From an uncultured Candidatus Saccharibacteria bacterium (GTDB taxonomy: Bacteria > Patescibacteriota > Minisyncoccia > Phycocordibacterales > UBA5272): 64,000 nt of DNA. Each line of letters begins with the position of its first letter. The stretch's first letter is position 1. Shown one piece after another: positions 18,830-36,634 of the stretch. Position numbers and translations under genes: made by a program. The notes under the pieces were generated by a model. It was given only the letters and a program-made list of their open reading frames with translations, was not told where the DNA came from and ran no database searches. Location of the stretch: assembly GCA_964512315.1 (NCBI GenBank), contig CAZEIK010000004.1, positions 8,198 to 72,197 of the forward strand, read 5' to 3'.

Positions 18830-19251
18830 AGCTTGATCTCTATTTTACCCTTTCTAATATAGAATTTTTCAGTATTACTACTTTTTTCCTTTACCACAAC
18901 CGATAGCAATCCTTCGTCTATTTCTTTTATTGTCATCGAGTCATTCTCACCATCAGCGAAACAATCGAACTCTTTTGGCTCGTTCAAAAGAATAATGCTT
19001 TGTATGAATAACTTATCTTCTAACAAGATACTTTTTAGAACAATATTGTGTTCTTGGTGGAGTCTCTCGACTGATATACCACTCATGATGCAAGGTATGT
19101 AACCATAAGGTGTGGATATATTTTTTTCTTCTTTTACTTTTATTTGAACTTTACTTGGTGTTGTCTTGGTTGCTTGGTCTTCGTTCTTAACATTGCCACT
19201 ACTTAACCAAAACTTTCCATTAAAAAAGTTATCTATATATTTTCCAAACAT
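18826..19251 (-). CDS. Hypothetical protein (last gene of the pentose-phosphate operon)
   Basis: 141-aa ORF overlapping the tktC stop by 19 nt. No recognisable motif. Confidence 0.35.
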   Translation of the reverse strand: MFGKYIDNFFNGKFWLSSGNVKNEDQATKTTPSKVQIKVKEEKNISTPYGYIPCIMSGISVERLHQEHNIVLKSILLEDKLFIQSIILLNEPKEFDCFADGENDSMTIKEIDEGLLSVVVKEKSSNTEKFYIRKGKIEIKL

Positions 19252-20219
19252 GTATTGATTATATCATCTACTGTCAGACCATATTCACCGTATAACTCCC
19301 CAACAGTTCCAGACTGACCAAATCTATCTTTTACTCCCATTCTTATTACTTTGTTGTGGCCTGTAGCCGAAGACAGGAACTCCGCCACAGCTGAGCCCAT
19401 TCCACCAAAGGCTTGATGCTCTTCTACTGTTATAAAAGTTTTGTATACATTGGCTAATCTAAAAATAGCTTCTTCTGGTAATGGTTTAATGCAAGAAATA
19501 TTAACTAGCACTACTTGTATATTTTGCTCTGCTAACTTTTTTGCTGCAAGTAAAGCGTTAAAAATTATAGGTCCTGTTGCTAATATACACACCTTCTTAG
19601 CGTGAGTCTCAATGCTAGAAAAGAGTATTTCTGGCTTTTTTAAATTCACCTGGCCATATTCATCTGAGAAAATCTTCGCTGACTTTTCTCTTGCTAGTCT
19701 TATATATACCGGACCTGGTATATCTTTTGCTAACTTAGTCATAAGATAAGCCTCCCTAGAATCGGCAGGAGACAATACTGTAATATTTGGAATAACTCTC
19801 ATAAGCGCAATATCTTCTAACGCTTGATGTGTTCCACCGTCTGGACCAACCGACAATCCTGCGTGAGCGCCAGCTATAATAACTTTAGAATCATTGTAGC
19901 AAATAGTCGTCCTAATCTGCTCCCAATTTCTTCCTGGGCTAAACATTGCATAGCTAGAAATGAATGGCTTCATACCCATTGCAGCCATACCGCTCGCCAC
20001 AGCCGCCATGTTCTGCTCCGTTATCCCAACCTCGACGAATCTAGAAGCAAATCTCTCTTTGAAAAGATGCATCTGCACACTTTCAGTTAAGTCGGCACAC
20101 AGTGCTGCAACCGTCTTATCCTCTTCACCAAGATCAACCAGAGCCTTACCAAACCCAACTCTAGTAGCCTCCATTTCGACTTCATTTGTAAAAATATTTT
20201 TATTTAACATATTATTCAA
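19233..20219 (-). CDS. Transketolase, C-terminal subunit (split transketolase)
   Basis: 328 aa. Pyrimidine-binding and C-terminal domains of transketolase. Overlaps the N-terminal subunit gene by 8 nt. Confidence 0.85.
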   Translation of the reverse strand: MNNMLNKNIFTNEVEMEATRVGFGKALVDLGEEDKTVAALCADLTESVQMHLFKERFASRFVEVGITEQNMAAVASGMAAMGMKPFISSYAMFSPGRNWEQIRTTICYNDSKVIIAGAHAGLSVGPDGGTHQALEDIALMRVIPNITVLSPADSREAYLMTKLAKDIPGPVYIRLAREKSAKIFSDEYGQVNLKKPEILFSSIETHAKKVCILATGPIIFNALLAAKKLAEQNIQVVLVNISCIKPLPEEAIFRLANVYKTFITVEEHQAFGGMGSAVAEFLSSATGHNKVIRMGVKDRFGQSGTVGELYGEYGLTVDDIINTCLENI

Positions 20220-21066
20220 GGTTTATTTTGCCTCCCATTGTTCTGATTGATTGTATCGCCTTTTTTGCTTCTTCACTATTTGGAGCTTTGCCATGCCAAT
20301 GATAATCCCCTTCTATCTGAGACCAGCCCTTACCCGGAATAGTGTGAGCAATTATTGCAGTTGGGTTAATACTATTACTCTTTGCAATATTAACTGCATC
20401 AACTATCTCCATCATGTTGTGTCCATCTATTTCTAGAACATTAAAATTAAACGCCTTCAACTTCTCCGACAAGCTTTCAAGCGGCATAACATCTTCTGTC
20501 CTGCCATCTATCTGTATTCCATTTCTATCTATTATTGTTATAACATTAGTTAGATTATATTTTGAAAGTGTTAGGAGCGCTTCCCAGACATTACCTTCAT
20601 TCATCTCACCGTCCCCCATCAAACAATAAAAATTCTTTGGCATTCCACCCATCATCCTATCAGCTAATGCCATGCCTGTTGCTTGCGAAAGTCCTGATCC
20701 AAGTGGACCGCTAGATGTCTCAACACTTTTTAGAAACTCGCGATGAGGATGACCTTGCAATCTACTTCTGAATTTTCTAAGTGTCTTTAGCTCACTAACT
20801 GGCAAGTATCCAGCATGTGCCATAGTTGCATACAGAACTGGACAAATATGTCCATTAGAAAGTATTAACCTGTCCCTGTGTGCCCAATCTGGACTAGATG
20901 GATCATGCTTAAGTATTTTAAAATATAAAGCAGTAAATACATCCGCCATACCGAGCGGGCCCGCAGTATGACCACTACCTGCTTCTAACAACATATCAAT
21001 AATTGAAAGCCTGATCTCTTTGGCTCGAGCTTCAAGCTTATGTATTTCTATGTCAGTAAGACTCAT
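20212..21066 (-). CDS. Transketolase, N-terminal (TPP-binding) subunit
   Basis: 284 aa. TPP-binding GDGEMNEGNVWEA motif. Confidence 0.85.
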   Translation of the reverse strand: MSLTDIEIHKLEARAKEIRLSIIDMLLEAGSGHTAGPLGMADVFTALYFKILKHDPSSPDWAHRDRLILSNGHICPVLYATMAHAGYLPVSELKTLRKFRSRLQGHPHREFLKSVETSSGPLGSGLSQATGMALADRMMGGMPKNFYCLMGDGEMNEGNVWEALLTLSKYNLTNVITIIDRNGIQIDGRTEDVMPLESLSEKLKAFNFNVLEIDGHNMMEIVDAVNIAKSNSINPTAIIAHTIPGKGWSQIEGDYHWHGKAPNSEEAKKAIQSIRTMGGKINLE

Positions 21067-23357: not shown

Positions 23358-23420
23358 CTACATCGACGATGTTTAACAAAATAACATAAAACAGAAGAAA
23401 TTTCAATGCTTATTAAAACT

Positions 23421-24215
23421 CTACCTTACTATTACCTGACTTTCATAGAACCGAATATCGTCAAGTTGACCCGTAAAAGGTGAGCCGGATATTGAACCCA
23501 CCTTGAGAGTGTCGGAGTTTGTGTTACTTAAAAGAACTCCGTACGTAAATTGCTCTGCCACCCTAACACCGTCAAAATAAAAGGTGCCCAACCTTGTGCT
23601 AGAGTCAAAAGAAAAAACAACATGATGCCAATTAGTGTCAGTGACTACTACTGGAGAAGACCAGTCATAACCCCAGAAGCCAGCCATAAGATTATCGTAC
23701 CTAAACCCTAGAGCAAATTGCTGACCTCCTCCACCAGGTCCTTTTGAAACAAAGAAATTATTCACAGCCCCAAAATTACCAGTCCTTCTAAACCACAAAC
23801 TCACCGAAAAGCTTTTACCATCTAATTGAGGACTATTAACATTTTTACTTGCAACATAATTTGTTCCATCGAATAACAGTGAATACTGTGAAGATGATGA
23901 ATAAGTGTTCTGTGAGTAAGATACACCTGAAACAGGTATTGTTAGGTCGTTTTGAGGCACATTAGAGGTCTGATTAATACTTGTATCCTTAGCTAACAAC
24001 CCACCTCCTTCGTCAAAGTCATACTTAGTGGTTACGTCGTACCTCTTTTCCAAGTTAATAGCAAATTGTTTTAATTTCGTATCGTTAGCTCTAGCTAGAG
24101 CGTTTTTAAAAGAAGGTATTATTATTACCGACAATACACCTATGATTGCTATCACTACTATCAACTCTAGTAAAGTAAAACCCCGGACACGATATCTCAT
24201 GTTTTGAGTATACAT
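23421..24215 (-). CDS. Type IV pilin-like protein with a C-terminal LamG/ConA-like lectin domain
   Basis: 264 aa. Class III signal RGFTLLELIVVIAIIGVLSVIIIPSF (G|FTLLE). The C-terminus matches the laminin-G fold (…SVSLWFRR…, TNWHHVVFSFD…LGTFYFDGVRV). Confidence 0.7.
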   Translation of the reverse strand: MYTQNMRYRVRGFTLLELIVVIAIIGVLSVIIIPSFKNALARANDTKLKQFAINLEKRYDVTTKYDFDEGGGLLAKDTSINQTSNVPQNDLTIPVSGVSYSQNTYSSSSQYSLLFDGTNYVASKNVNSPQLDGKSFSVSLWFRRTGNFGAVNNFFVSKGPGGGGQQFALGFRYDNLMAGFWGYDWSSPVVVTDTNWHHVVFSFDSSTRLGTFYFDGVRVAEQFTYGVLLSNTNSDTLKVGSISGSPFTGQLDDIRFYESQVIVR

Positions 24216-24245
24216 ATATATATGTATATTGAAAGTGAATAACAG

Positions 24246-24275
24246 AAAAAGCAGTCGTTTTCGCGACTGCTTTTT
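24246..24275. terminator. Rho-independent terminator hairpin
   Basis: gcagtcg-tttt(cg)-cgactgc stem-loop with a 5' A-tract and a 3' T-tract. Confidence 0.55.
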
Positions 24276-24284
24276 CTATACTTG

Positions 24285-24355
24285 TTGCGGGAGGACGAAT
24301 CGAACGTCCGCCTGGAGGTTATGAGCCTCCCGAGCTACCTCTACTCAATCCCGCT
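24285..24355 (-). tRNA. Initiator-like tRNA-Met (anticodon CAU)
   Basis: Hand-folded. Acceptor G2–A7/T66–C71 with an unpaired A1·A72 (an initiator hallmark). A11:U24 in the D-stem (initiator feature). Anticodon stem GGAGG/CCTCC; loop CUCAUAA; T-arm GGACG-TTCGATT-CGTCC. Confidence 0.6.
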
Positions 24356-24383
24356 ATATCTATGTTTTTACAATAACATAGAT

Positions 24384-25772
24384 TTAAATAATTTTCAACT
24401 CTTTGAACACAGCTTCGTATTCTGCAAAGGCGCGCCTTGCGTCTCTTTGTGTTAAAGTAAACTTCATACCCTCATGAGCTATTCTGTTGCGCAGCTTGTG
24501 TGCGTCCCAAGCCAAATCAATAGATCGGAAATTAGCCTCTTTTAACATCTCACCCAGATCCTCACCCGGATAACCAGCTACTCTCAATGTATCGTGTAAT
24601 AGGTTGTCAGCCTCAAGTATTCCTATTCTCCATAATGTTTCGTGGTCAGCAGCCATATAATCCTCAATCATAGCCCAACGTGGATGTTTAACATATTCAA
24701 CCTCTTTTGGTGGTTGCACCTCATGAGCAACAACATGCGGATTGTGAGCATGAACCACCTCACTACTGTGGTCTTCATGGTCAGCTTTATGTTCGTCATG
24801 ATTATGCCCCTTATCAAATATGCCCTTGTATCCGATGGCGTCGTGGAATAAGTGCTCATAATGCTCTACTGCGTGCCTCATTCTCATGAACCATAAGTAA
24901 AAAATAAAAATAGTGATAGGTAACATAAATAAGCTGAGTAGAGTTAATATGTCAGAAAGAAAAGATAGGAAATGATTCTGTATCGAAAGGGTTAACCCGC
25001 CATCCCCAGAGCCAGCAACAGAATGTAGCACATCATTTACATTAGCAGAGTTATGGCTATCGGTAGGATATGGATCAATATTGTCATACATACCATCACC
25101 ATCAGTATCTCTATTGTTCGGGTCTGTGCCTATTAACTTTTCATAGTGATCACCAACACCGTCCCCATCAGTATCTACATCGTCGTAAGAATAAGTTCTA
25201 TATGGGTCAAGTGGGTACGCATCACGCCCATCCAATGTACCATCACCATCAGTGTCTCTATTAAGCGGGTCGGTACCTCTGAATAACTCATCACCATCAA
25301 GTATTCCGTCATGATCTGTATCTGGATTATTAGGATCCATATTCTTAGAGCTCTCAACACTGTCAGGTACGCCGTCACCATCAAAGTCTCTGGGTGACAT
25401 ACCTATCCACATTCTTAAGTGATCGGTCCAGGCTAGGTCGTTACCATATATTTCTTTTATTTGCTCAGTTGTTAGATTGTGAGCATCAAAAGTCTTTGGG
25501 TCTCTTATATCTGGTATACCATCACCGTCGGTGTCTTTGCTGGTATTGAATCCAATATTATCCAAGAAGTTTAAATTAGAAATTGGTTCTGTACTACTTG
25601 AGTTACTATTAAGCCAACCCCTCTCACGTAATCCGTCCCACTCTGGATCGGCAACACTGTTCAGATACTCCTCAGGAGACATTCTGCGAATCCAAAAATA
25701 CCAAGCGTATCTGAGCCATAAGAGTCCATCATAAACTCGGTTAAACAAATAATCTAAACTGAAAGAATACAC
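24384..25772 (-). CDS. Membrane protein with thrombospondin-type-3-like Ca-binding repeats, a His-rich linker and a C-terminal HEPN-like (Rx4H) domain
   Basis: 462 aa. At least six D(T/F)DGDG(I/V/T)PD repeats. One TM helix (LTLLSLFMLPITIFIFYLWFM). A His-rich stretch (HNHDEHKADHEDH…HAHNPHVVAHE). The C-terminal ~90 aa contain KLRNRIAHEG. Confidence 0.5.
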   Translation of the reverse strand: MYSFSLDYLFNRVYDGLLWLRYAWYFWIRRMSPEEYLNSVADPEWDGLRERGWLNSNSSSTEPISNLNFLDNIGFNTSKDTDGDGIPDIRDPKTFDAHNLTTEQIKEIYGNDLAWTDHLRMWIGMSPRDFDGDGVPDSVESSKNMDPNNPDTDHDGILDGDELFRGTDPLNRDTDGDGTLDGRDAYPLDPYRTYSYDDVDTDGDGVGDHYEKLIGTDPNNRDTDGDGMYDNIDPYPTDSHNSANVNDVLHSVAGSGDGGLTLSIQNHFLSFLSDILTLLSLFMLPITIFIFYLWFMRMRHAVEHYEHLFHDAIGYKGIFDKGHNHDEHKADHEDHSSEVVHAHNPHVVAHEVQPPKEVEYVKHPRWAMIEDYMAADHETLWRIGILEADNLLHDTLRVAGYPGEDLGEMLKEANFRSIDLAWDAHKLRNRIAHEGMKFTLTQRDARRAFAEYEAVFKELKII

Positions 25773-25779
25773 TAGTTAA

Positions 25780-27171
25780 TTATAAACCCTCTATATCGCT
25801 TGCGATAGTGAATAAGTGGTCTTCTTGACCCCATGACGCAAGAGCCTGGACACCAAAAGGTAACCCTTCTTTACTTCTACCAGTTGGAAACGATATTCCC
25901 GGCACTCCAACAATGTTAGCAGGAACAGTAAATATGTCAGCTAAATACATAGAAAGAGGGTCGTGCTTGTCGCCGAACTTCCAAGGAAGAACTGGGGAGG
26001 TCGGTGTTAGTATTATGTCTATATCCTTGAAAGCTTTTTCAAATTCTTGCTTTAAAAGATTACGAACTGATACAGCTTTGTAATAATAAGCATCATAGTA
26101 TCCACTAGAGAGTACATACGCACCAAGTAATGATCTACGTAACGGCTCCTCACCTAGTCCCGCTCCACGGCTTTGCATCATGCTCGCCGCTGGCGTGTCA
26201 GCGCTCACATGCTTACCATATCTAACACCTTCGAATCTAGCCAAATTACTACTAACTTCTGCTGGCATCAATATGTAATATACAGCTAACGCCTTTTCTA
26301 TATTCTTAATATCAACTGGCACTATCTCGTAACCTGCGGACTTTAAGAAGTCTATAGTTTTATTAAAATTCTCTTTTACTTCTGCATCGACACCGTCTTG
26401 ATTGACAAACATTTGAGGTACACCAACCTTTTTTCTAAAAGCCTTCTTCTCTATCTCATTAATCGTGGTCGCATCCTTAACGTCCTTGCCTGATATTGTT
26501 TGGAATATTATCTTCGCATCTTCTACAGAGTTAGTGAATGAGCCTATGACATCCAAAGATGATCCCATAGCTATAAGACCATAACGACTAACTGATCCAT
26601 ATGTTGGTTTTAGCCCTACCGTACCAGTAAAGCTCGCTGGCTGCCTAATACTGCCTCCAGTGTCAGATCCTAGTGACACAGGCACTCCACCATACGCAAC
26701 AACAGCAGCTGAGCCTCCAGAAGACCCACCCGGAACCCTAGTCATGTCTATTGGGTTAAGAGTTTTCTTATACGCACTATTCTCAGTTGAACTACCCATA
26801 GCGAACTCATCCATGTTGGCACGCCCAACTATGACTGCACCAGCTTCACGTAACTTTCTTACAACAGTCGCATCATATGTAGCTGTGTAATTCTCTAACA
26901 TCTTGCTGCCTGCACTAGCAATGTGCCCTTTTACACAAATATTATCTTTAAGAACTATAGGAACACCTGTCATGTCTACATTCTTACCTGATTGCCACAT
27001 AGCCTCTGCAATAGCAACTTGTGCCTCTATGTCAGCATCAGAATATAACTCCAACAATGCACCAACTTGCTGATCTTTTTCTTTTATTATATTTACAAAG
27101 TCAAAAACTGTTTTAGAAACTCCGTCCTGCTTAATCTTATCTTTTATATTTAAAATTGTTGAAGCTTTCAT
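25780..27171 (-). CDS. gatA: Glutamyl-tRNA(Gln)/Aspartyl-tRNA(Asn) amidotransferase subunit A
   Basis: 463 aa. Amidase signature GGSSGGSAA. Confidence 0.9.
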   Translation of the reverse strand: MKASTILNIKDKIKQDGVSKTVFDFVNIIKEKDQQVGALLELYSDADIEAQVAIAEAMWQSGKNVDMTGVPIVLKDNICVKGHIASAGSKMLENYTATYDATVVRKLREAGAVIVGRANMDEFAMGSSTENSAYKKTLNPIDMTRVPGGSSGGSAAVVAYGGVPVSLGSDTGGSIRQPASFTGTVGLKPTYGSVSRYGLIAMGSSLDVIGSFTNSVEDAKIIFQTISGKDVKDATTINEIEKKAFRKKVGVPQMFVNQDGVDAEVKENFNKTIDFLKSAGYEIVPVDIKNIEKALAVYYILMPAEVSSNLARFEGVRYGKHVSADTPAASMMQSRGAGLGEEPLRRSLLGAYVLSSGYYDAYYYKAVSVRNLLKQEFEKAFKDIDIILTPTSPVLPWKFGDKHDPLSMYLADIFTVPANIVGVPGISFPTGRSKEGLPFGVQALASWGQEDHLFTIASDIEGL

Positions 27172-27175
27172 AAAT

Positions 27176-27466
27176 TTACTGCTTGATTACTTGAGACACT
27201 TTGTAATAACCATTTTGAGACTCTGGCGCATTCTTTAAAGCCATCTCTCTGTGACCAGCGTCTTCTAGCACAATGTCCCCTTTATAAACATCGTGCGGAG
27301 TACCATCATTAACCTGTCCAACTTCTACAGAAGACGTGTCAACTGACTGCACCTCTTTTATATAATTTAAAATATCGCCGATTTGTTTAGCGTAAAGCTC
27401 GCGCTTGCTATCATCAATTTTTACTTTAGCTAGTCCTTCTAAATAATTTATTACCTCTGTATCCAT
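27176..27466 (-). CDS. gatC: Amidotransferase subunit C
   Basis: 96 aa, immediately upstream of gatA. GatC-like N-terminus. Confidence 0.8.
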   Translation of the reverse strand: MDTEVINYLEGLAKVKIDDSKRELYAKQIGDILNYIKEVQSVDTSSVEVGQVNDGTPHDVYKGDIVLEDAGHREMALKNAPESQNGYYKVSQVIKQ

Positions 27467-27473
27467 CTGATGA

Positions 27474-29456
27474 TTATAACATTTTTTGATAATCCTCGAA
27501 ATTGATTACTTTCACGCCCAGCCTGGTCGCGTCATCTAATTTACTGCCAGGGTCCTGTCCACACAAAAGATATGAAGTTTTGCCACTAACACTACTAGAT
27601 ACTTTTCCTCCATGTGACTCGATTTCATTTTTAATAATGTCTCTAGATATCTCAAAAGACCCAGTAATAACAAATGTTTTACCCTCTAGCGCTTGTGAAA
27701 TATTTATATTTTTGACTTTATTTACTTTTATATATGAGAGCAGGTCATCTACAAGCTTCTTACTTTTAGCGTTATTAAAAAATGCCACCAGGCTCTTAGC
27801 AGACTCTTCACCTATATTTGGAGTTTGTAATAATTGTTCTAAGGAAGCATCTCTTAAAGCTGTAAAGCTTTTAAAATACTTCGCTAACTCTTTTGCTGTC
27901 GTTTCTCCTATGTGACGAATACCTAACGAGTATATAAAATTATCCAACTCCACAACCTTGCTGCCCTGTATTGAGTTGATTATGTTCTCAGCGCTCTTCT
28001 TGCCGTAACCGAATAGTCCCTCTATGTCGCTCACTTTTAATTCATATATACTAGCTGCATCTGTTATAAGGCCAAGCTCTGCGAACTCATATATTATCTT
28101 CTCTCCTAGTCCTTCTATATTCATTCCTTTCTTAGAGACAAAATGCACAAGTGACTCGAGATGCTTAGCATTACAATCTGGATTCAAACAATATAGAGCA
28201 ACTGATCCATCTAACTTTTGCAACTTAGAATTACATGTCGGACAATTTGTTGGCATCTCAAATGCGTGTGACCCTTTAGGTCTCAAACTTAAGACAACCT
28301 CTAACACCTCCGGTATAATGTCTCCTGCTTTTTGTAGTATTACAGTATCACCAACACGTACATCTAGTCTTTGTATCTCGTCAGGATTATGCAATGTAGC
28401 ACGCGAGACAGTGCTGCCCGCAATTAGAACTGGCGAAAGATTGGCAACCGGAGTGATAGCGCCAGTGCGCCCGACTTGGCAGACAATACTCTCGATAACA
28501 CTTGTTGCTTGTTCAGCGGGGAACTTATAAGCAATACCAGCACGAGGACTCTTGGCTGTGTAGCCAAGTGACTCAAAAATCTCTCTCTCGTTAACTTTTA
28601 CAACCATACCATCAACACCAAATTCAAAGTTGCCCCTAATCTCTTTCCAAGTGTCGTAAATATCTTGAACCTCTTTTATACCTCTGGCATATTTAGATTC
28701 CGAGTTCACCATGAACCCTAAATCTTTGAGAAGCTCTAACTCTTCTATTTGTGTTGGTGGCAAGTCCAAGCTATACATATCAATATCATATGCAAAATAA
28801 TGCAGCTTTCTAGACGATGCAGCACTGGAGTCTAGCTGTCTCAATGTTCCTGCTGCCAAGTTACGTGGATTAGCGTACTTCTCCTCTCCTTCTTTTAATT
28901 TTTGGTTGAACTTCTCAAAATCAGACTTTTTAATAAAACATTCACCTATTACTATTATGTCTACACTTTTGTTTAACTTGAGCGGTACTGACTTTATAGT
29001 TCTAACATTATGAGTCACATCTTCACCAACCTCCCCGTCACCACGAGTAGCAGCTTGGACCAATTCTCCACTCTTATAAGTCAGAACTAATTTTAGTCCG
29101 TCAATCTTAAACTCACAAACATAACTTGGCTTTATGCTAATATTAGACTTATTTAAAATGGTTAAGTTCCTTTCTTCCCAATTTGAAAGCTCCTCAAAGT
29201 TAAATACATTATCGAAACTCCATTGTCTGGTTGCGTGTTTAACTTTTTTAAAGCTATCAATTACTTCTCCGCCAACCCTCTGAGATGGAGAATTCTTGTC
29301 ATACATACTTGGATACTTAGCTTCAAGAGAGACTAGTTCAGTCATCATGGTGTCATAAGCCTCATCACTAATAGTTGGCCTATCCAGAACATGATAAGCA
29401 TATCTATGTTTCTCCAGTTCGTCTCTTAACTTAAGCAATCTCTCTTGTTCAGTCAT
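27474..29456 (-). CDS. ligA: NAD-dependent DNA ligase
   Basis: 660 aa. Adenylation motif KIDGLKL and a C-terminal zinc finger (CPTCNSKL…C…C), followed by HhH and BRCT regions. Confidence 0.92.
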   Translation of the reverse strand: MTEQERLLKLRDELEKHRYAYHVLDRPTISDEAYDTMMTELVSLEAKYPSMYDKNSPSQRVGGEVIDSFKKVKHATRQWSFDNVFNFEELSNWEERNLTILNKSNISIKPSYVCEFKIDGLKLVLTYKSGELVQAATRGDGEVGEDVTHNVRTIKSVPLKLNKSVDIIVIGECFIKKSDFEKFNQKLKEGEEKYANPRNLAAGTLRQLDSSAASSRKLHYFAYDIDMYSLDLPPTQIEELELLKDLGFMVNSESKYARGIKEVQDIYDTWKEIRGNFEFGVDGMVVKVNEREIFESLGYTAKSPRAGIAYKFPAEQATSVIESIVCQVGRTGAITPVANLSPVLIAGSTVSRATLHNPDEIQRLDVRVGDTVILQKAGDIIPEVLEVVLSLRPKGSHAFEMPTNCPTCNSKLQKLDGSVALYCLNPDCNAKHLESLVHFVSKKGMNIEGLGEKIIYEFAELGLITDAASIYELKVSDIEGLFGYGKKSAENIINSIQGSKVVELDNFIYSLGIRHIGETTAKELAKYFKSFTALRDASLEQLLQTPNIGEESAKSLVAFFNNAKSKKLVDDLLSYIKVNKVKNINISQALEGKTFVITGSFEISRDIIKNEIESHGGKVSSSVSGKTSYLLCGQDPGSKLDDATRLGVKVINFEDYQKML

Positions 29457-29475: not shown

Positions 29476-30102
29476 TTAATTGTATCTTTTGACCACTACA
29501 CGCTCAACCCTAGAAGTAGAGTCGCAAGGAACTTTGCCGCGACCAATAATGAGTACCGCACCAGTAGAAGTTGTGTGCATTTCTATCTCAGCGCAAGCAA
29601 ATCTTGGAAAGTCAGCCCTCTTTATGCTAACCAACACTTTTGCACCCCCAGAATATGTAGCTATATTAGACGCGGATATTGTTGTAGTTGATTGATAATC
29701 AGCAGTTGAGGCAGTACTAGTTCCTGGTGCAGAAGATAAAGCTGTGAACGATAATGGAAATAGTGGCACATCAAAGCAACCAACAGTAGTCGGATCTACA
29801 TAAGGAAAATTACCAGTATTAGAATCAAAATGCGTAGAGATAAATGACGTGATTACTGGGAAAATACTTCGATTAATATCAGGATTTGGGCTATTTTTAA
29901 AATTTTTAAACACTGATTCCGCACACATCATAGATGAGTCAGCAAGTGAGGCTGCTACTCTTGTGTCATAGCTGATATTGCTCTCTCTTAGGTCTCTTAA
30001 CATTATTATAGTAATAGCAATAGTAAGGGTCAGTAAGACCGCCACCACTATCATAGCTATACCTAATACGAAACCTCTATTTTTATTTCTATTGATATAC
30101 AT
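29476..30102 (-). CDS. Minor pilin / pseudopilin-like protein (lacks Glu+5; GspK/PilX-like)
   Basis: 208 aa. N-terminal RGFVLGIAMIVVAVLL hydrophobic segment without the conserved Glu. Last gene of the minor-pilin block. Confidence 0.5.
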   Translation of the reverse strand: MYINRNKNRGFVLGIAMIVVAVLLTLTIAITIIMLRDLRESNISYDTRVAASLADSSMMCAESVFKNFKNSPNPDINRSIFPVITSFISTHFDSNTGNFPYVDPTTVGCFDVPLFPLSFTALSSAPGTSTASTADYQSTTTISASNIATYSGGAKVLVSIKRADFPRFACAEIEMHTTSTGAVLIIGRGKVPCDSTSRVERVVVKRYN

Positions 30103-30697
30103 AAGATGTTACTTGCATTTTATCATTACATATTCCTCTGTCATAACAAACAGTCGATATAACTTTCACTCCTGTATACCACTGATTATTGCTAGACCTG
30201 TCTTTCCATCTATCAACTCTCTGCATAGATATGTATCTTGAGAATCTTGTGCTTGTAGCAGTTGAGTTACAGACAAATTCTCCACTACTGTTGTTATACA
30301 AAATAGTGCACGATGGATTGTCTGTGTATGTAGCAAGTGTAGGAATAAAAGATGTCTTATCGAATCTGCAATAATTAGCACCAGCGTCTACACAATAAGA
30401 CATTTTATTTAGAAACATCGGAAAAGAAGTGGTAGCAGCCGAAGGTCCGAGTGCACACTCGTCAACGCCTGGATTAGTAGTACAATATGTCTCTAGAGAC
30501 TTTCTAAAAAAGATCACCAGCTCCACACCCTCATTAGCTAGATACGTAGCTTGGGCTCTAGTACTAGCAAGCCTAGAAACTTTTTCTATCTGATAAGTAA
30601 GAGCAAGAGGCGCAATTATTACTATCATAAGTATAGTAATAGCAACCATTGCTTCTACTAGAATAAAACCTTGATTTTGTTTTTTAATTTTAAACAT
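30089..30697 (-). CDS. Minor type IV pilin
   Basis: 202 aa. Prepilin motif QGFILVEAMVAITIL. Confidence 0.65.
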   Translation of the reverse strand: MFKIKKQNQGFILVEAMVAITILMIVIIAPLALTYQIEKVSRLASTRAQATYLANEGVELVIFFRKSLETYCTTNPGVDECALGPSAATTSFPMFLNKMSYCVDAGANYCRFDKTSFIPTLATYTDNPSCTILYNNSSGEFVCNSTATSTRFSRYISMQRVDRWKDRSSNNQWYTGVKVISTVCYDRGICNDKMQVTSYVYQ

Positions 30698-30698
30698 A

Positions 30699-31436
30699 CT
30701 AATTTTCTGGCTCTCTTTGTGTTATGGTTGTCTGTACAGAAAAAGGAACTATAGGTCTCGTGTTAGTCTCACCTTCTATAACTATCTGAATAAATGCTTG
30801 ACCTATGTTAGAAGAATCATCCACGTATGAGCCAGTGTTAGTAGCTGTCACTAAAAACTTTTTTACTTTTATGCTGGATGGTAATATTGTCTCATTTCTT
30901 GAATTAGAAAAATACCCTTCATTATTATAATCAATACTTCCGTTAAACCCTCCACGATTAAAAAATGTCATGTTAACATTATCTGATCCGTCAACATTAA
31001 CTAGCCCAGAGTATCTTCTTATTGTTCCATCTTGCAAGACATACCCTGCACGCCTAACTGGATTAGTGTATGTTGGGTCAGTGGTAGAGGCGTAATAAGC
31101 ACTGTACTCAGATGGAGTAAATGCTATGCCGTACTGACCCAAATCACAGTCACGAGCTTTGTTCAAGTTGGTTGGAACTGGGGAAGAAATTATAAACTCA
31201 TTTGATGGTAAACATCTATACTTAGTTCCTTGAGATATTTCACGCACCATATCGTCCAATACAAGATTAACTGCTTCATATACATTTCTACTAGCTGCCA
31301 ACCTGTCATTAGTTGCATTGGCTCCAAAAATTATAGTAGTTACAAGAAGAGCTACAAACGAGAACACGCTCACCGCTATCAACAACTCTGTCAAAGTAAA
31401 ACCTTTTATTTTCAATTTTAAAGTAAATAACTTCAT
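30699..31436 (-). CDS. Minor type IV pilin
   Basis: 245 aa. Prepilin motif KGFTLTELLIAVSVF. Confidence 0.65.
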   Translation of the reverse strand: MKLFTLKLKIKGFTLTELLIAVSVFSFVALLVTTIIFGANATNDRLAASRNVYEAVNLVLDDMVREISQGTKYRCLPSNEFIISSPVPTNLNKARDCDLGQYGIAFTPSEYSAYYASTTDPTYTNPVRRAGYVLQDGTIRRYSGLVNVDGSDNVNMTFFNRGGFNGSIDYNNEGYFSNSRNETILPSSIKVKKFLVTATNTGSYVDDSSNIGQAFIQIVIEGETNTRPIVPFSVQTTITQREPEN

Positions 31437-31440
31437 GTTA

Positions 31441-32169
31441 CTAATAAATAGGTGTGGTTGGGCAGCGTGTCTGAAGGACTCTTATCTCACCAGTAGACCT
31501 TACAACTATAGACCTTTGTTGGCTTGTAGTTGCTAGTCCTGGCTGAGTGAATTCTAAGCATACGTTGCTGTGAGGATTTTTATATTTTGTTCTGAAGTCA
31601 TTAATAAAAGTGTTACTAGTGATTCTTGCGTCAAGCTTCGGTCTATTGAATACAATCTCTACATCTTTCCAGCCACTTGCCCCACAGGCAAAACCTAAAA
31701 CTTCTCTACCTGGGTCATAAACATCGTAACTTGGATACTCTTCATATGTCTCGTAACCGTAACATATGTCAGTCAACATAATGCCATTAAGAAAAGTTTT
31801 AGATGTTGTCGCCTCAACAGACGGACCATCCCAAACATAATTAGATGTTCCTATGCCAGAAATAGTAGAAGACGAGTCAATTTTGTCTTGGAATAAATAG
31901 TAATTATAAGGTGCGTTATTGCTTAAGTACACACCGTCCCCTTTTGCAGTGCTGCCACCACGGGACGCTCCGTATATTTGTATCTCTTTTAGCTGTGCTG
32001 CGAAGTCACTAACTCCCGTACTAAAACTAACGAACTTATTAGTAGATGGATATGTTCCATACATAGTGGTAGCTAGTATTGAAATAATAGCCATCGATAT
32101 CATCATCTCAATCACAGTAAAGCCTCTATCTAAGACTAACTTTAATTTTTTATTAATAGAGAATTTCAT
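31441..32169 (-). CDS. Minor type IV pilin
   Basis: 242 aa. Prepilin motif RGFTVIEMMISMAII. Confidence 0.65.
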   Translation of the reverse strand: MKFSINKKLKLVLDRGFTVIEMMISMAIISILATTMYGTYPSTNKFVSFSTGVSDFAAQLKEIQIYGASRGGSTAKGDGVYLSNNAPYNYYLFQDKIDSSSTISGIGTSNYVWDGPSVEATTSKTFLNGIMLTDICYGYETYEEYPSYDVYDPGREVLGFACGASGWKDVEIVFNRPKLDARITSNTFINDFRTKYKNPHSNVCLEFTQPGLATTSQQRSIVVRSTGEIRVLQTRCPTTPIY

Positions 32170-32932
32170 ACAAATTGAGTATATCAGTTTGAGTGTACCA
32201 CACTAACAAGCTCGCAATGATAATAAACGGTGTAAAAGGTATCTCTGACTTCATGCCGTACTTGTTGCTGTGGAATATCATCAGAAGTATCGCTACAAAT
32301 GCCCCAAGCCACACAGAATACAAGAACATAGTTAAGCCAAATGGTAAGCCAAGTATGAATCCATAAGCCGCGTAAACTAATATATCCCCCAATCCTAACC
32401 ATTTACCTTTTGAAATAACATAAAGTATTGAGAATGGCGCAGCAACAATAAATCCTGACAATATATCATAAGAACTAAACCCGTACATGTGTACTCTAAG
32501 ACCAGTAAGGATAATACCTAAGACACCCAGAATTGAAACTATCTCAACCGGAACAATTGTATGCCTTATATCGTAGATAACTATGACAACGGACATACAT
32601 ATAACAAAAGATGCTACTAAAAATATAATTAATTGTGTATTAAATGCATAAGGTAAAGATAATGATGTAACTAAAGCGAGAGCAACAAGGATTCCTGTTG
32701 CAATCTCAGACAATAGATACATTGGTGAGAGCTTTGAACCACACTTCTTACACCTACCCCTCTGAATTAAATATGACAATATGGGAAAAAGCTCCCCCGG
32801 GTAGAGCTTTTTTCCGCATGACATACATTCACTTCTCCCTGTCCATACGGATTTGATCCGTAACCTGTCAGCTACTAGGTTCGCGAAACTTCCTAATGCT
32901 GCTCCAAAGATGAAAGCAAATAATATATTCAC
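32153..32932 (-). CDS. pilD: Prepilin peptidase (A24 family)
   Basis: 259 aa. N-terminal zinc-binding CMSCGKKL…CKKCGSKL, then polytopic membrane segments. Confidence 0.85.
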   Translation of the reverse strand: MNILFAFIFGAALGSFANLVADRLRIKSVWTGRSECMSCGKKLYPGELFPILSYLIQRGRCKKCGSKLSPMYLLSEIATGILVALALVTSLSLPYAFNTQLIIFLVASFVICMSVVIVIYDIRHTIVPVEIVSILGVLGIILTGLRVHMYGFSSYDILSGFIVAAPFSILYVISKGKWLGLGDILVYAAYGFILGLPFGLTMFLYSVWLGAFVAILLMIFHSNKYGMKSEIPFTPFIIIASLLVWYTQTDILNLYEILY

Positions 32933-32939
32933 GTAATTA

Positions 32940-33557
32940 TTATGGTGTTATATCGAAGATACATGTACCAAATGCTCCTGTACATGTTTCATTCGTACCA
33001 ACTGGAAGACTTGTAGTACCAGAAACTGTATACCCTGACACAACAAATGGTGTCGTTCCTAGTATTGTCTGTGCTGTAGTTGGCGTGATGTCTATATCAG
33101 CAGAAAGAGCTGAGTTAGACTGCTCAAGATTTGTCCACAATGCATAGCTTTGACAAAGTCCACCACTTGATGGCATTTGACAACCTAGGCCAACATAGTT
33201 ATATGTACTAGATCCAGTGGAAAGCGAGTTCATGAATACTCCAGCTGGTAAACGAGTATCTATACCTGACAACAATATTGCACAGAAAGAAGTTGTCGAG
33301 TAGGTTGGAGCTGTACATCCTGATGCAGATGTCGGCATAGTACCAGTTGCTGGATACAAACCATTATTATTCTGTGCCCACTGCAACAATTCTTTTTGTA
33401 ACCCGTTCAACTCTGCTACTTTTCTTCCATCTCTAGAACGAGCAAGTGCTGTTGTAAAGCTTGGAATTATAATAACAGATAGAACGCCAATAATAGCAAT
33501 CACTACGATAAGCTCAAGAAGTGTGAAGCCACGTAATGAAGTTTTGTTTTTAATCAT
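32940..33557 (-). CDS. Major type IV pilin (paralog 1)
   Basis: 205 aa. RGFTLLELIVVIAIIGVLSVIIIPSF class III signal. C-terminal Cys pair. Confidence 0.8.
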   Translation of the reverse strand: MIKNKTSLRGFTLLELIVVIAIIGVLSVIIIPSFTTALARSRDGRKVAELNGLQKELLQWAQNNNGLYPATGTMPTSASGCTAPTYSTTSFCAILLSGIDTRLPAGVFMNSLSTGSSTYNYVGLGCQMPSSGGLCQSYALWTNLEQSNSALSADIDITPTTAQTILGTTPFVVSGYTVSGTTSLPVGTNETCTGAFGTCIFDITP

Positions 33558-33663
33558 ACTTTTAATTATAAATTTATAATCTTTCGATTACTAATAACAA
33601 GTATACTCACAAAATAAAAAAATTAATTAACTGTTATACACACATATACACACAAAATTTATT

Positions 33664-34260
33664 TTATGGGGCTAAGTTAAAAATACAAGTATTAGTTACG
33701 CCAGTACATGTCTCTATGTCACCATTAGCCATGTTAGCAGTAACTGGGAGTATCATACCTGCTGCTGACCAGTCGACTCCACGCCAAGAAGTTGTCGCAG
33801 TACCTGATGCGTCACTGTCTGAAGAGAGCGCCGAATTACTTTTCTCCAAATCAACCCACAACTGATAAGACTGACACAGCCCACCAGAAAAACATGCAAC
33901 ACCCACATAGTTGTAAAGAGGCCCCGTCCCTCCAGATGCTGTTCCATTAAATGCGCCGTCTGGTAACTTGCTCACTATGTTTGAACTTACTAACGCACAG
34001 AGAGATGTTGAAGTCGAGCAGCCCGCAGACTTAGTTGGAACTGTACCAGTTGCTGGATAGCGACCGTTATTATTCTGCGCCCACTGAGAAAGTCCTTTAT
34101 GTAGACCAGTAAGTTCGGCAATTTTTCTTCCATCTCTAGAACGAGCAAGTGCTGTTGCAAAACTTGGAATTATGATAACAGATAGAACACCGATAATAGC
34201 AATCACTACGATGAGCTCGAGGAGTGTGAAGCCTTTTGATTTTACTTTTTTATTATTCAT
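33664..34260 (-). CDS. Major type IV pilin (paralog 2; tandem duplicate)
   Basis: 198 aa. Identical N-terminal 25 aa. About 90% nucleotide identity to paralog 1 over the first ~200 nt, with a divergent C-terminus. Confidence 0.8.
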   Translation of the reverse strand: MNNKKVKSKGFTLLELIVVIAIIGVLSVIIIPSFATALARSRDGRKIAELTGLHKGLSQWAQNNNGRYPATGTVPTKSAGCSTSTSLCALVSSNIVSKLPDGAFNGTASGGTGPLYNYVGVACFSGGLCQSYQLWVDLEKSNSALSSDSDASGTATTSWRGVDWSAAGMILPVTANMANGDIETCTGVTNTCIFNLAP

Positions 34261-34338
34261 AGAAAAAATATATGGCTTTTAGATACGATTAATTATAATC
34301 CTCAAAAGTTTTTATATTTAAAACTTATCCACAAAAAA

Positions 34339-35547: not shown

Positions 35548-35548
35548 G

Positions 35549-36607: not shown

Positions 36608-36634
36608 TCAAAGAGTATATAACGCCCTAGGCAG

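What the first reader, a model, noticed from the sequence alone, without database searches (positions are those of the whole stretch)
24384..25772. Unusual membrane protein: thrombospondin-type-3 Ca-binding repeats + TM + His-rich linker + HEPN-like C-terminal domain
The 462-aa product has at least six DxDGDGxPD repeats (TSP3/calcium-binding type) in its N-terminal half and a single TM helix. It then has a conspicuous His-rich stretch (HNHDEHKADHEDH…HAHNPHVVAHEV), which may bind metal. A ~90-aa C-terminal domain contains KLRNRIAHEG, an Rx4H arrangement like the HEPN RNase motif (DUF4145-like). I do not recognise this combination as a described architecture. HEPN domains usually mark defence or abortive-infection components. 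The gene sits directly beside a pilin–LamG adhesin gene and two tRNA genes, which gives an accessory-island context.
Basis: partly seen in the sequence, partly recalled or inferred. Interest (0 to 1): 0.7.

Follow-up and report, generated by a model that had tools for sequence, protein, structure and literature searches.

The report
Membrane-tethered HEPN protein of Parcubacteria
The gene encodes a membrane protein with a calcium-binding outer part and an inner domain that looks like a HEPN RNA-cutting enzyme; it is not a mobile defence gene but the local version of an undescribed protein family that sits at a fixed place in a housekeeping operon in hundreds of ultra-small (Patescibacteria) bacterial species.

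Summary
ORF 24384-25772(-) encodes 462 aa with six DxDGDG TSP3 repeats (Pfam TSP3_bac 7e-10), one strong TM helix, a linker with 20% His and a ~100-aa C-terminal domain with invariant RNxxAH.

The HEPN call is supported:
- AF2 model pLDDT 96.
- The motif lies at the end of helix 3.
- 43/68 family members give sub-threshold HEPN_Swt1 hits. DUF4145 is not the best match.

The defence or accessory-island reading is not supported:
- The C-domain defines a large family without any Pfam model: about 2,960 clusters at 50% identity, and at least 579 GTDB species, all Patescibacteria.
- The gene lies directly after gatA in 77/80 species loci (ligA-gatC-gatA-X; median gap 26 nt). A tRNA-Met/Met/Asp cluster usually follows.
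- There are no phage, plasmid, viral-contig or PADLOC matches.

Most members are about 190-230 aa. The TSP3 block is an ectodomain insertion of one subclade; other members carry SH3_3/GW there.

Best reading: a core, membrane-tethered cytoplasmic HEPN domain, probably an endoribonuclease, with a lineage-variable surface module. RNase activity and topology are inferred, not shown.

The parts
24384..25772 (-). Complete CDS (462 aa, GTG start, TAA stop): the 'X' gene, a membrane-tethered HEPN-domain protein
   Evidence: ORF. The GTG start is supported because the first 30 aa are conserved in 100+ homologs. An RBS-like GAGGG lies 14 nt upstream, inside the gatA 3' end. The public annotation of the identical protein starts at Met31 (P0273, 432 aa).
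25608..25772 (-). Conserved N-terminal module (residues 1-55): aromatic helix 6-28 (probable first membrane segment or interfacial helix) and the DGLRxRGW motif (46-53)
   Evidence: AF2 helix 6-28, pLDDT about 87-90. Invariant F10, Y14, L18, Y22, F26, G47, L48, R49, R51, W53 in A4. The [LI]-[DE]-[YF]-x-F-x-[KR]-x-Y motif is shared with short family members.
25053..25541 (-). Ectodomain insertion: six thrombospondin-type-3 (bacterial TSP3) Ca-binding repeats (residues 78-240)
   Evidence: Pfam PF18884 at 7.3e-10. Repeats located. Asp ligands invariant. AF2 pLDDT 91-96 over residues 110-240. The block is absent from the ~190-230-aa majority of the family.
24885..24974 (-). Main transmembrane helix (residues 267-296), followed by the R/R-rich cytoplasmic flank MRMRH
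   Evidence: Hydropathy. AF2 helix 267-308.
24705..24884 (-). His-rich, largely disordered juxtamembrane linker (residues 297-356; 20% His over 301-364)
   Evidence: Composition. AF2 pLDDT below 50 for residues 323-346. His richness and an HYEHHF motif recur in subclade orthologs.
24387..24704 (-). C-terminal HEPN-fold domain (residues 357-462)
24474..24491 (-). RNRIAH = Rx4H putative catalytic motif (R428, N429, H433)
   Evidence: Translation check. Invariant in A3 and A4. Lies at the C-terminal end of the long helix 418-437, which matches the canonical HEPN helix-3 position.
24606..24614 (-). E387-A388-D389: conserved acidic residues in the helix equivalent to HEPN helix 2
   Evidence: E387 and D389 invariant in A4; D invariant and E at least 90% conserved in A3. 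The HEPN literature describes a conserved acidic residue in helix 2 (PMC3710099). Spatial proximity to the motif was not measured.
25780..27171 (-). gatA (amidase subunit), the gene immediately upstream; 7 nt separate its stop codon from the X start
   Evidence: ORF. gatA lies upstream on the same strand in 77/80 GTDB loci plus L001-L004. Gap median 26 nt.
27176..29456 (-). gatC (27176-27466) and ligA (27474-29456), the upstream members of the conserved operon
   Evidence: ORFs. Pfam labels for the homologous loci. tblastn synteny.
24242..24355 (-). tRNA-Met(CAT) (24284-24355), 28 nt downstream of the X stop codon, followed by a 16-bp-stem intrinsic terminator (24279->24242) that closes the transcription unit
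   Evidence: ARAGORN. Terminator scan. A tRNA-Met(CAT) lies downstream of X in most related loci.

Best explanation
X is the local ortholog of a large, undescribed, Patescibacteria (Parcubacteria/Paceibacteria)-specific family of small inner-membrane proteins. Their constant part is a membrane anchor plus a cytoplasmic C-terminal HEPN domain with an intact R-N-x3-H site.

**Operon.** X is the last cistron of the vertically inherited ligA-gatC-gatA-X operon and is co-transcribed with these housekeeping genes.

**Topology.** In the window's subclade (Nomurabacteria-like), a ~190-residue Ca-binding TSP3 repeat module has been inserted into the extracytoplasmic loop between the N-terminal membrane-associated helix and the main TM helix. 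The cytoplasmic juxtamembrane linker has become His-rich. The most likely topology is N-in, helix 1, TSP3 ectodomain out, TM2, linker and HEPN in.

**Mechanism (inferred).** The HEPN domains of two or more membrane-tethered copies pair to form a metal-independent endoribonuclease site. This site cleaves RNA (mRNA, tRNA or rRNA precursors) at the inner face of the membrane. It would be a constitutive or stress-modulated RNA-processing or RNA-decay function, not a mobile toxin. The variable ectodomain (TSP3 here, SH3_3/GW elsewhere, nearly none in most members) anchors the protein to the envelope or modulates it in response to the envelope or Ca2+.

**Shown:** domain composition, fold class, motif invariance, family size, taxonomic restriction, synteny, and absence from mobile-element collections.

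**Inferred:** topology, oligomerisation, RNase activity, substrate, and the regulatory role of the ectodomain and His linker.
For: **Fold and motif**
- AF2 pLDDT 96.1 for the C-domain.
- RNRIAH lies at the end of helix 3, as in canonical HEPN domains.
- R/N/H and E/D are invariant, and the motif is present in 262/266 sequences.
- HEPN-clan Pfam hits: HEPN_Swt1 43/68, RiboL-PSP 21, pEK499_p136 12, Cthe2314 6, Ymh 5, DUF4145 4.

**Family**
- 2,964 representatives at 50% identity, with the domain always C-terminal.
- More than 3,000 clusters at 90% identity, none with a Pfam domain on the C-part.
- At least 579 GTDB species, all labelled as Patescibacteria groups.

**Core-gene status**
- gatA is upstream in 77/80 loci; the gap is at most 100 nt in 74/81.
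- ligA, gatC and pilins lie upstream.
- The downstream tRNA cluster is conserved, and a terminator follows the tRNA.
- No phage, plasmid or IMG/VR homologs.
- No PADLOC match to the window protein and one marginal PHROG hit in 68 members.

**Topology**
- 64 of 129 representatives have a Lys-rich N-terminus plus two hydrophobic segments.
- The inserted domains are extracytoplasmic types: TSP3, SH3_3, GW.
- Positive residues follow the main TM.

**Insertion**
- Short members share both the N-terminal motif and the C-domain.
Against: - No curated HEPN model reaches its gathering threshold. The best single-member hit is E=1.3e-4, and the window protein itself gives 0.03.
- Foldseek against PDB is not significant, best E 0.26.
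- There is no sequence-level match to any solved structure.
- HEPN folds can be non-catalytic, as in Csx28 (a pore) and the KNTase C-domain.
- The N-terminal helix of the window protein is only weakly hydrophobic and carries D/N/R residues. Positive residues (RR) follow it, so export of a 240-residue acidic ectodomain without a classical signal peptide is unexplained.
- Conserved gene order in reduced genomes can reflect inheritance rather than functional coupling.
- Copy number per genome and essentiality were not measured.
Confidence: 0.55

Rival explanations
1. Defence or abortive-infection HEPN toxin on an accessory island. The HEPN RNase would be a suicide or defence effector, triggered by phage or surface signals.
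For: - Most prokaryotic HEPN families are conflict-system components (PMC3710099).
- One short family member gives weak PADLOC CARF-HEPN hits (0.009).
Against: - The gene has a fixed position after gatA in 77/80 species loci.
- The C-domain is 40-60% identical across the class, which is housekeeping-like conservation.
- No MNT, antitoxin or CRISPR neighbour is present.
- No homologs in 50,697 phage records, 72,556 plasmid records or IMG/VR.
- No PADLOC hit for the window protein.
- The tRNA genes belong to the conserved backbone.
Confidence: 0.05
2. Non-catalytic HEPN fold acting as an oligomeric membrane pore or channel, like Csx28, or as a scaffold. The invariant R/N/H residues would serve subunit contacts or ligand binding rather than RNA cleavage. 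The His-rich linker and TSP3 module would suggest cation (Ca2+/Zn2+/Ni2+) handling.
For: - Csx28 is also an N-terminal TM helix plus a cytoplasmic four-helix HEPN-like bundle of similar size. It forms an octameric pore in which the motif residues are structural (bioRxiv 10.1101/2021.11.02.466367).
- The N-terminal helix and TM-proximal residues are unusually well conserved.
- The protein has a His-rich linker and a Ca-binding ectodomain.
Against: - The motif here is the canonical R-N-x3-H with the polar residue after R, plus a conserved upstream acidic residue. Csx28's motif is divergent.
- Most family members lack both the His-rich linker and any sizeable ectodomain.
Confidence: 0.15
3. Ire1-like transmembrane signalling RNase. 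The ectodomain (TSP3, SH3_3 or GW) would sense Ca2+, the cell wall or host-surface contact. It would drive dimerisation of the cytoplasmic HEPN domains, which then cleave specific transcripts or tRNAs as a regulated response.
For: - Membrane-associated HEPN proteins were predicted to act this way (PMC3710099, section 15).
- The ectodomains are variable, of surface-binding type, and inserted at one position.
- HEPN RNases need dimerisation for a composite active site (general statement there).
Against: - The majority of the family has only a few-residue loop between the two membrane segments, so the ancestral function cannot depend on an ectodomain.
- No partner signalling genes are present in the neighbourhood.
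Confidence: 0.2
4. Functional partner of the neighbouring genes. X would be a membrane tether or regulator for the GatCA amidotransferase/tRNA pathway, or an RNase that matures the co-located tRNA-Met/Met/Asp cluster or the operon transcript.
For: - gatA-X adjacency in 77/80 loci with short gaps.
- A tRNA-Met lies 28 nt downstream in the window, and a tRNA-Met(CAT) lies within about 1.5 kb downstream in most of the 45 loci scanned.
- Several HEPN RNases target tRNA, for example PrrC and RloC.
Against: - The tRNA genes are on the opposite strand in about 10 loci, and in the window they appear to have their own promoter-like sites.
- Adjacency alone is weak evidence in streamlined genomes.
- No GatB-like or tRNA-binding domain is detected in X.
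Confidence: 0.1

Closest known systems
HEPN superfamily (Pfam clan CL0291), best sub-threshold match Swt1/Abi2-like HEPN (PF18731)
   Same: - Four-helix core with a short helical insert between helices 2 and 3.
- R-N-x3-H at the end of helix 3.
- Conserved acidic residue in helix 2.
   Different: - No curated HEPN model reaches threshold.
- No solved relative is detectable by sequence.
- It forms its own family of about 3,000 clusters, restricted to Patescibacteria and always C-terminal to a membrane anchor.
Bacterial membrane-associated HEPN proteins predicted by Anantharaman et al. 2013 (DUF4145 + WP-TM; Abi2/Swt1 HEPN after a conserved TM helix; HEPN-2TM-Zn ribbon)
   Same: - TM segment(s) plus a predicted cytoplasmic, catalytically intact HEPN domain.
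- Possible external sensor domain.
- Proposed RNA cleavage at the inner membrane face. These proteins were also uncharacterised experimentally in the 2013 paper.
   Different: - Different lineages (Proteobacteria, Planctomycetes, Firmicutes) and different N-terminal modules.
- None was reported as a core gene in a ligA-gatCA operon.
- The TSP3 ectodomain and His-rich linker were not reported.
Csx28 (type VI-B2 CRISPR accessory protein)
   Same: Small protein with an N-terminal TM helix and a C-terminal cytoplasmic four-helix HEPN-like domain.
   Different: - Csx28 has a divergent motif, forms an octameric pore, is encoded next to cas13b and acts in phage defence.
- X has the canonical motif and no CRISPR context.
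- Csx28 is not among the top structural hits for X.
Ire1 / RNase L KEN domain and C6orf70 (eukaryotic membrane-anchored HEPN RNases)
   Same: Single-pass or bitopic membrane protein with an external sensing part and an internal HEPN RNase that is activated by self-association. This is a working analogy only.
   Different: - X has no kinase domain.
- There is no detectable specific sequence relationship.
- X is bacterial, and most family members have no ectodomain.
HEPN-MNT toxin-antitoxin modules (e.g. SO_3166/SO_3165, 5yep; 7ae2; 8xdj)
   Same: Among the best structural matches; same Rx4H chemistry is expected.
   Different: X has no adjacent MNT nucleotidyltransferase, is not mobile, is membrane-anchored, and is conserved in synteny.
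RNase Y / RNase E (membrane-tethered housekeeping endoribonucleases)
   Same: The concept of a constitutive endoribonuclease held at the cytoplasmic membrane by an N-terminal TM or amphipathic helix.
   Different: The catalytic folds are unrelated (HD/KH; S1/DNase I-like). The analogy is functional and untested.
Bacterial TSP3 repeat proteins (PF18884; e.g. CglD, MtsD-type surface proteins)
   Same: DxDGDGxxD Ca-binding repeats, extracytoplasmic. Weak NCBIfam matches to CglD and MtsD repeats.
   Different: Here the repeats are a loop insertion in a small membrane protein and are not part of a large adhesin. The scores are far below the equivalog cutoffs.

Membership tests
HEPN superfamily | Up-down four-helix bundle, often with an insert between helices 2 and 3 | tested here: met
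HEPN superfamily | Rx4-6H motif at the end of helix 3, with a polar residue (N/D/H) after R | tested here: met
   R428-N429-R-I-A-H433 lies at the C-terminal end of helix 418-437. It is invariant in 68 and 104 sequences and present in 262/266. The position criterion comes from PMC3710099.
HEPN superfamily | Conserved acidic residue in helix 2 near the active site | tested here: inconclusive
   E387 and D389 are invariant or nearly invariant in the helix preceding the insert. The Ex3[KR] form is not present, and 3D proximity to R/H could not be measured because no coordinates were accessible.
HEPN superfamily | Significant profile match to a curated HEPN family | tested here: not met
   The window protein scores HEPN_Swt1 E=0.031, 15 bits, against a cutoff of 27.5. 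The best family member scores 1.3e-4. All hits are sub-threshold, but 43/68 members hit HEPN_Swt1 and several other HEPN families.
HEPN superfamily | Metal-independent endoribonuclease activity dependent on R and H | not testable with these tools
   Requires biochemistry.
   No hit for the window protein. Only 4/68 members give weak hits, best 1.6e-3.
Anti-phage defence / abortive-infection HEPN systems | Match to known defence-system models, partner genes (MNT, CARF, Cas, RM), patchy or mobile distribution | tested here: not met
   PADLOC gives no hit for the window protein. No phage, plasmid or IMG/VR homologs. The neighbours are ligA, gatC, gatA, tRNAs and housekeeping genes. Synteny holds in 77/80 species.
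Csx28-like HEPN membrane pore | Association with cas13b; divergent motif; octameric face-to-back assembly | tested here: not met
Bacterial TSP3 repeat (PF18884) | Repeated DxDxDGxxDxxE/D Ca-binding motif above the Pfam gathering score | tested here: met
   38.9 bits against a cutoff of 25, E=7.3e-10. Six repeats. Asp residues invariant in orthologs. Ca binding itself was not tested.

The most novel reading that the evidence does not exclude
This family is a Parcubacteria-wide, essential, membrane-tethered HEPN endoribonuclease. That would make it a bacterial housekeeping HEPN RNase and possibly the clade's membrane-associated RNA-decay or processing enzyme. In subclades with ectodomains (TSP3 here, SH3_3/GW elsewhere), it would work as an Ire1-like device that couples surface, Ca2+ or host-contact sensing to RNA cleavage in episymbiotic ultra-small bacteria.
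Probability: 0.2. Interest if true: 0.8.

Novelty: new variant of a known kind. Interest (0 to 1): 0.55.

Why it matters
HEPN domains in prokaryotes are known almost entirely from conflict systems: toxin-antitoxin modules, Abi systems and CRISPR accessory nucleases. This family is different. It has a catalytically intact-looking HEPN domain, is tethered to the membrane, and sits at a fixed place in a housekeeping operon. It is found in hundreds of Patescibacteria species and about 3,000 sequence clusters, yet has no Pfam or NCBIfam model and no literature found here.

If it is an RNase, it adds a lineage-specific core RNA-processing or RNA-decay enzyme to organisms whose RNA metabolism is poorly understood. 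The ectodomain variants would give a simple test of the 2013 prediction that bacteria couple surface sensing to HEPN-mediated RNA cleavage.

For genome annotation, the result turns an apparent defence-island oddity into a definable family with a clear signature (W-R-x-[AG]-I-x-E-A-D ... A-W-x-A-H-K-x-R-N-x-I-A-H). It also flags a likely mis-called start codon in the public record.

Tried and rejected
- **PDB sequence searches.** Single sequence and two profiles gave only chance-level hits: glutamate dehydrogenase, MukF and Top7. All were rejected.
- **Foldseek against PDB**. No significant match. It was used only as weak corroboration, because the top hits are HEPN.
- **AFDB50 fold search.** Not available on the machine.
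- **NCBIfam**. Only far-sub-threshold TSP3-repeat matches to CglD and MtsD. Not homology to those proteins as a whole.
- **PADLOC** and **PHROGs**. Essentially nothing.
- **Phage, plasmid and IMG/VR searches**. Nothing.
- **Literature searches.** HEPN + Patescibacteria/CPR/Parcubacteria, and RNase Y + CPR. No paper describes this family.
- **X as a GatB replacement.** Considered because it occupies the gatB slot after gatA. Rejected: no GatB/YqeY-like domain and an unrelated fold.
- **Alternative ATG start at Met31** (the public annotation). Rejected because the upstream 30 residues are strongly conserved.
- **N-out single-span topology.** Kept only as an unresolved alternative.
- **gatB or RNase Y/E in the window**. 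None found among the ORFs scanned, but 64 kb cannot establish absence from the genome.
Full report
**1. The observation**

- Six DxD[GH]DG repeats start at residues 80, 129, 151, 173, 200 and 222. Pfam's bacterial TSP3 repeat model is matched above its gathering score (E=7.3e-10, 38.9 bits against 25).
- One strongly hydrophobic stretch lies at about residues 272-296. It is followed by MRMRH and then a 64-residue segment with 20% His.
- The last ~100 residues contain KLRNRIAHEG.

All elements of the observation are therefore real.

**2. The C-terminal domain is a HEPN fold, but of a family nobody has catalogued**

- On its own, the window's C-domain gives only a weak HEPN_Swt1 hit (E=0.03). 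It gives nothing in NCBIfam, PADLOC or PDB sequence searches.
- A word-indexed search with residues 262-462 found 11 relatives. A profile of their C-domains then found more than 3,000 clusters at 90% identity.
- An exhaustive HMMER scan found 2,964 representatives of clusters at 50% identity (1,954 at E<=1e-10). The domain is always at the C-terminus. None carries a Pfam annotation on this part, and all source names are 'hypothetical protein'.
- Scanning 68 diverse C-domains individually against Pfam gave consistent sub-threshold hits to HEPN-clan models: HEPN_Swt1 43/68 (best 1.3e-4), RiboL-PSP-HEPN 21, pEK499_p136 12, Cthe_2314 6, Ymh 5, DUF4145 4.
- An AlphaFold2 model from that alignment is very confident (pLDDT 96.1, pTM 0.88). 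Its helices are 5-15, 19-40, 47-53, 59-78 and 83-99.
- The RNRIAH motif lies at the end of the long third core helix. The reference analysis of the superfamily places Rx4-6H exactly there, with a polar residue after R. That analysis also describes an upstream conserved acidic residue in helix 2 (PMC3710099). E387 and D389 are candidates for it.
- R428, N429 and H433 are invariant in 104 full-length orthologs and in 68 diverse C-domains. The motif is present in 262/266 family sequences.

The specific DUF4145 label does not.

**3. The gene is core and syntenic, not accessory**

- Look-ups of two short family members showed the order pilins - ligA - gatC - gatA - X. This is the order in the window: ligA 27474-29456, gatC 27176-27466, gatA 25780-27171, X 24384-25772.
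All of the 80 best are labelled as Patescibacteria groups: Paceibacterota, Parcubacteria, Nomura-, Kaiser-, Taylor- and Zambryskibacteria.
- In 77 of these 80 loci, gatA lies immediately upstream on the same strand, and ligA is usually upstream of that.
- The distance from the gatA stop to the X start has a median of 26 nt and is at most 100 nt in 74/81 loci. In the window it is 7 nt, with a GAGGG inside the gatA 3' end.
- Downstream, a 72-nt tRNA-Met(CAT) follows X in most of the 45 loci examined. A second tRNA-Met, a tRNA-Asp and tRNA-Thr genes usually come next.
- In the window, the first tRNA-Met starts 28 nt after the X stop codon. It is followed by a 16-bp-stem terminator that closes the unit.
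- Upstream of ligA, the window carries a complete type IV pilus operon: PilB, PilT, PilC, PilD and pilins. The rest of the window is housekeeping: GluRS, TGT, an aaRS, LepA and MurJ.
- tblastn of the C-domain found nothing in 50,697 phage records or 72,556 plasmid records, and a profile-based scan of IMG/VR found no relative. PHROGs gave one marginal hit in 68 members.

None of this fits a defence or abortive-infection module.

**4. Architecture and evolution within the family**

- Most members are about 185-240 aa.
- Among 129 representatives, 64 have a Lys-rich N-terminus (MADxKK...) followed by two clear hydrophobic segments and then the HEPN domain. This is an N-in/C-in hairpin.
- Another group, including the window protein, starts with a conserved [LI]-[DE]-[YF]-x-F-x-[KR]-x-Y motif.
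- Long members carry extra domains between the first and second membrane segments. A sizeable subclade has TSP3 repeats; others have SH3_3/GW or FG-GAP-like repeats. These are all extracytoplasmic, envelope-binding domain types. The TSP3 block of the window protein is therefore an insertion into the external loop.
- The full 460-aa architecture recurs in at least 120 clusters at 90% identity and in about 24 GTDB species loci with 4-6 repeats.
- Within this subclade, the HEPN domain is the best conserved part (mean identity to the window 0.65). The N-terminal module (0.51) and the TSP3 region (0.48) follow. The linker is conserved only in composition (0.27): 8-13 His per 62 residues in most members, with an HYEHHFHH motif next to the membrane.
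- The full-length AF2 model (pLDDT 83) shows helix 6-28, a confident TSP3 region (pLDDT 91-96), one long helix 267-308, a disordered linker at 323-346 and the HEPN bundle.
- In the N-terminal helix, F10, Y14, L18, Y22 and F26 are invariant, with i+4 spacing. This is unusual for a mere anchor and suggests a specific helix-helix or interfacial contact.
- The public copy of this exact protein (P0273, 432 aa) is annotated from Met31. The conservation of residues 1-30 argues that the GTG at 25772 is the true start.

**5. How it most likely works**

*Shown:* a membrane anchor; a cytoplasm-type flank after the TM; a HEPN fold with every canonical catalytic-site feature invariant; co-operonic placement with ligA-gatCA; clade-wide vertical inheritance; and lineage-variable external inserts.

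*Inferred:*
- The protein is inserted as a hairpin (N-in, ectodomain out, C-in).
- HEPN domains of neighbouring copies pair, as HEPN RNases generally do, to form a metal-independent endoribonuclease site at the inner face of the membrane.
- The enzyme has a constitutive or stress-tuned RNA-processing or RNA-decay role.
- In this subclade, the Ca-binding TSP3 module tethers it to the envelope or senses the envelope, and the His-rich linker may bind divalent metal.

This matches the class of 'membrane-associated HEPN domains' predicted in 2013 to process RNA at the membrane, by analogy with Ire1 (PMC3710099, section 15). It is a different family in a different, core-gene context.

I put about 0.55 on the core membrane-tethered RNase model. 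The sub-claim 'core syntenic gene, not a mobile defence gene' is much firmer, at about 0.9.

*Rivals:*
- An ectodomain-regulated, Ire1-like signalling RNase. This is compatible with the main model for this subclade, but it cannot be ancestral because most members have no ectodomain.
- A Csx28-like non-catalytic pore. This is disfavoured by the canonical motif and by the absence of Csx28 from the structural hits.
- A specific partnership with GatCA or with the adjacent tRNAs. This rests on adjacency only.
- A defence toxin. This is contradicted by synteny and distribution.

**6. Unresolved points**

- The window protein's first helix is only weakly hydrophobic, contains D/N/R residues, and is followed by RR. 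How a 240-residue acidic ectodomain is exported without a classical signal peptide is unexplained. An N-out single-span topology is not excluded.
- No curated HEPN model reaches threshold, so superfamily membership rests on fold, motif and consistent weak profile hits.
- Copy number per genome, essentiality, and the presence of other endoribonucleases or gatB in these genomes were not determined.

**7. Verdict**

The HEPN call holds, but the gene is neither defence-related nor on an island. The gene is the TSP3-bearing variant of a very large, uncatalogued, Patescibacteria-specific family of membrane-tethered HEPN proteins that sit at the end of the ligA-gatCA operon. I rate it a new variant of a known kind and of moderate interest. 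It would be more interesting if the housekeeping-RNase or Ire1-like reading proves true.

Noticed in passing
window 23421-24215 (-): The pilin-LamG gene (N_methyl + Laminin_G_3) lies between the two tRNA-Met genes. No homolog is found near X in any of the 84 related loci. In the closest relatives, L005 and L006, the two tRNAs are only about 80 nt apart. It therefore looks like a lineage-specific insertion into the tRNA cluster.
   Followed up: partly
window 25683-25772 (-), first 30 codons of X: The public copy of this protein (P0273; NCBI/Logan, 81-kb contig) is annotated as 432 aa starting at Met31. The 30 upstream residues from the GTG start are strongly conserved in more than 100 orthologs, so the deposited start is probably wrong.
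   Followed up: yes
window 24370-24398 (-) and 23378-23406 (-): The same promoter-like pattern, TTGAAA-17 nt-TATT[GT]T with an upstream TG, precedes each of the two tRNA-Met genes. The first overlaps the last codons of X. A strong 16-bp-stem terminator (24279->24242) follows the first tRNA.
   Followed up: no
window 29476-38389 (-): A complete type IV pilus gene set lies directly upstream of ligA on the same strand: PilB 36635-38389, PilT 35549-36607, PilC 34339-35547, prepilin peptidase 32153-32932 and at least five N_methyl pilins. Pilin genes also precede ligA in L001, L003 and L004, so the whole block T4P-ligA-gatCA-X-tRNAs appears conserved.
   Followed up: partly
window 24284-24355 and related loci: The tRNA-Met(CAT) next to X is only 72 nt long, with the anticodon at position 33. 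It is paired in most loci with a second CAT tRNA of 74-78 nt. Which one is initiator, elongator or tRNA-Ile2 was not determined.
   Followed up: no
window 41486-43450 (-): A 654-aa ORF has no Pfam match at E<=1e-5.
   Followed up: no
window 19233-21066 (-): Transketolase appears to be encoded as two adjacent ORFs that overlap by 8 nt: 20212-21066 (N-terminal part) and 19233-20219 (C-terminal part). RpiB-like, ribulose-phosphate-epimerase-like and GAPDH-like ORFs come next. These identities were judged by eye from the translations and were not profile-checked.
   Followed up: no
L069 and L083 (same MAG, JALYQT01): Two contigs of one MAG each carry gatA-X with near-identical X N-termini. This is probably strain heterogeneity or duplicated contigs rather than a true paralog pair.
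   Followed up: no
family members P0174, P0197, L044: Some family members carry SH3_3/GW-type (cell-wall-binding) repeats in the same external-loop position where the window protein has TSP3 repeats. This suggests repeated domain swapping at one insertion point.
   Followed up: partly
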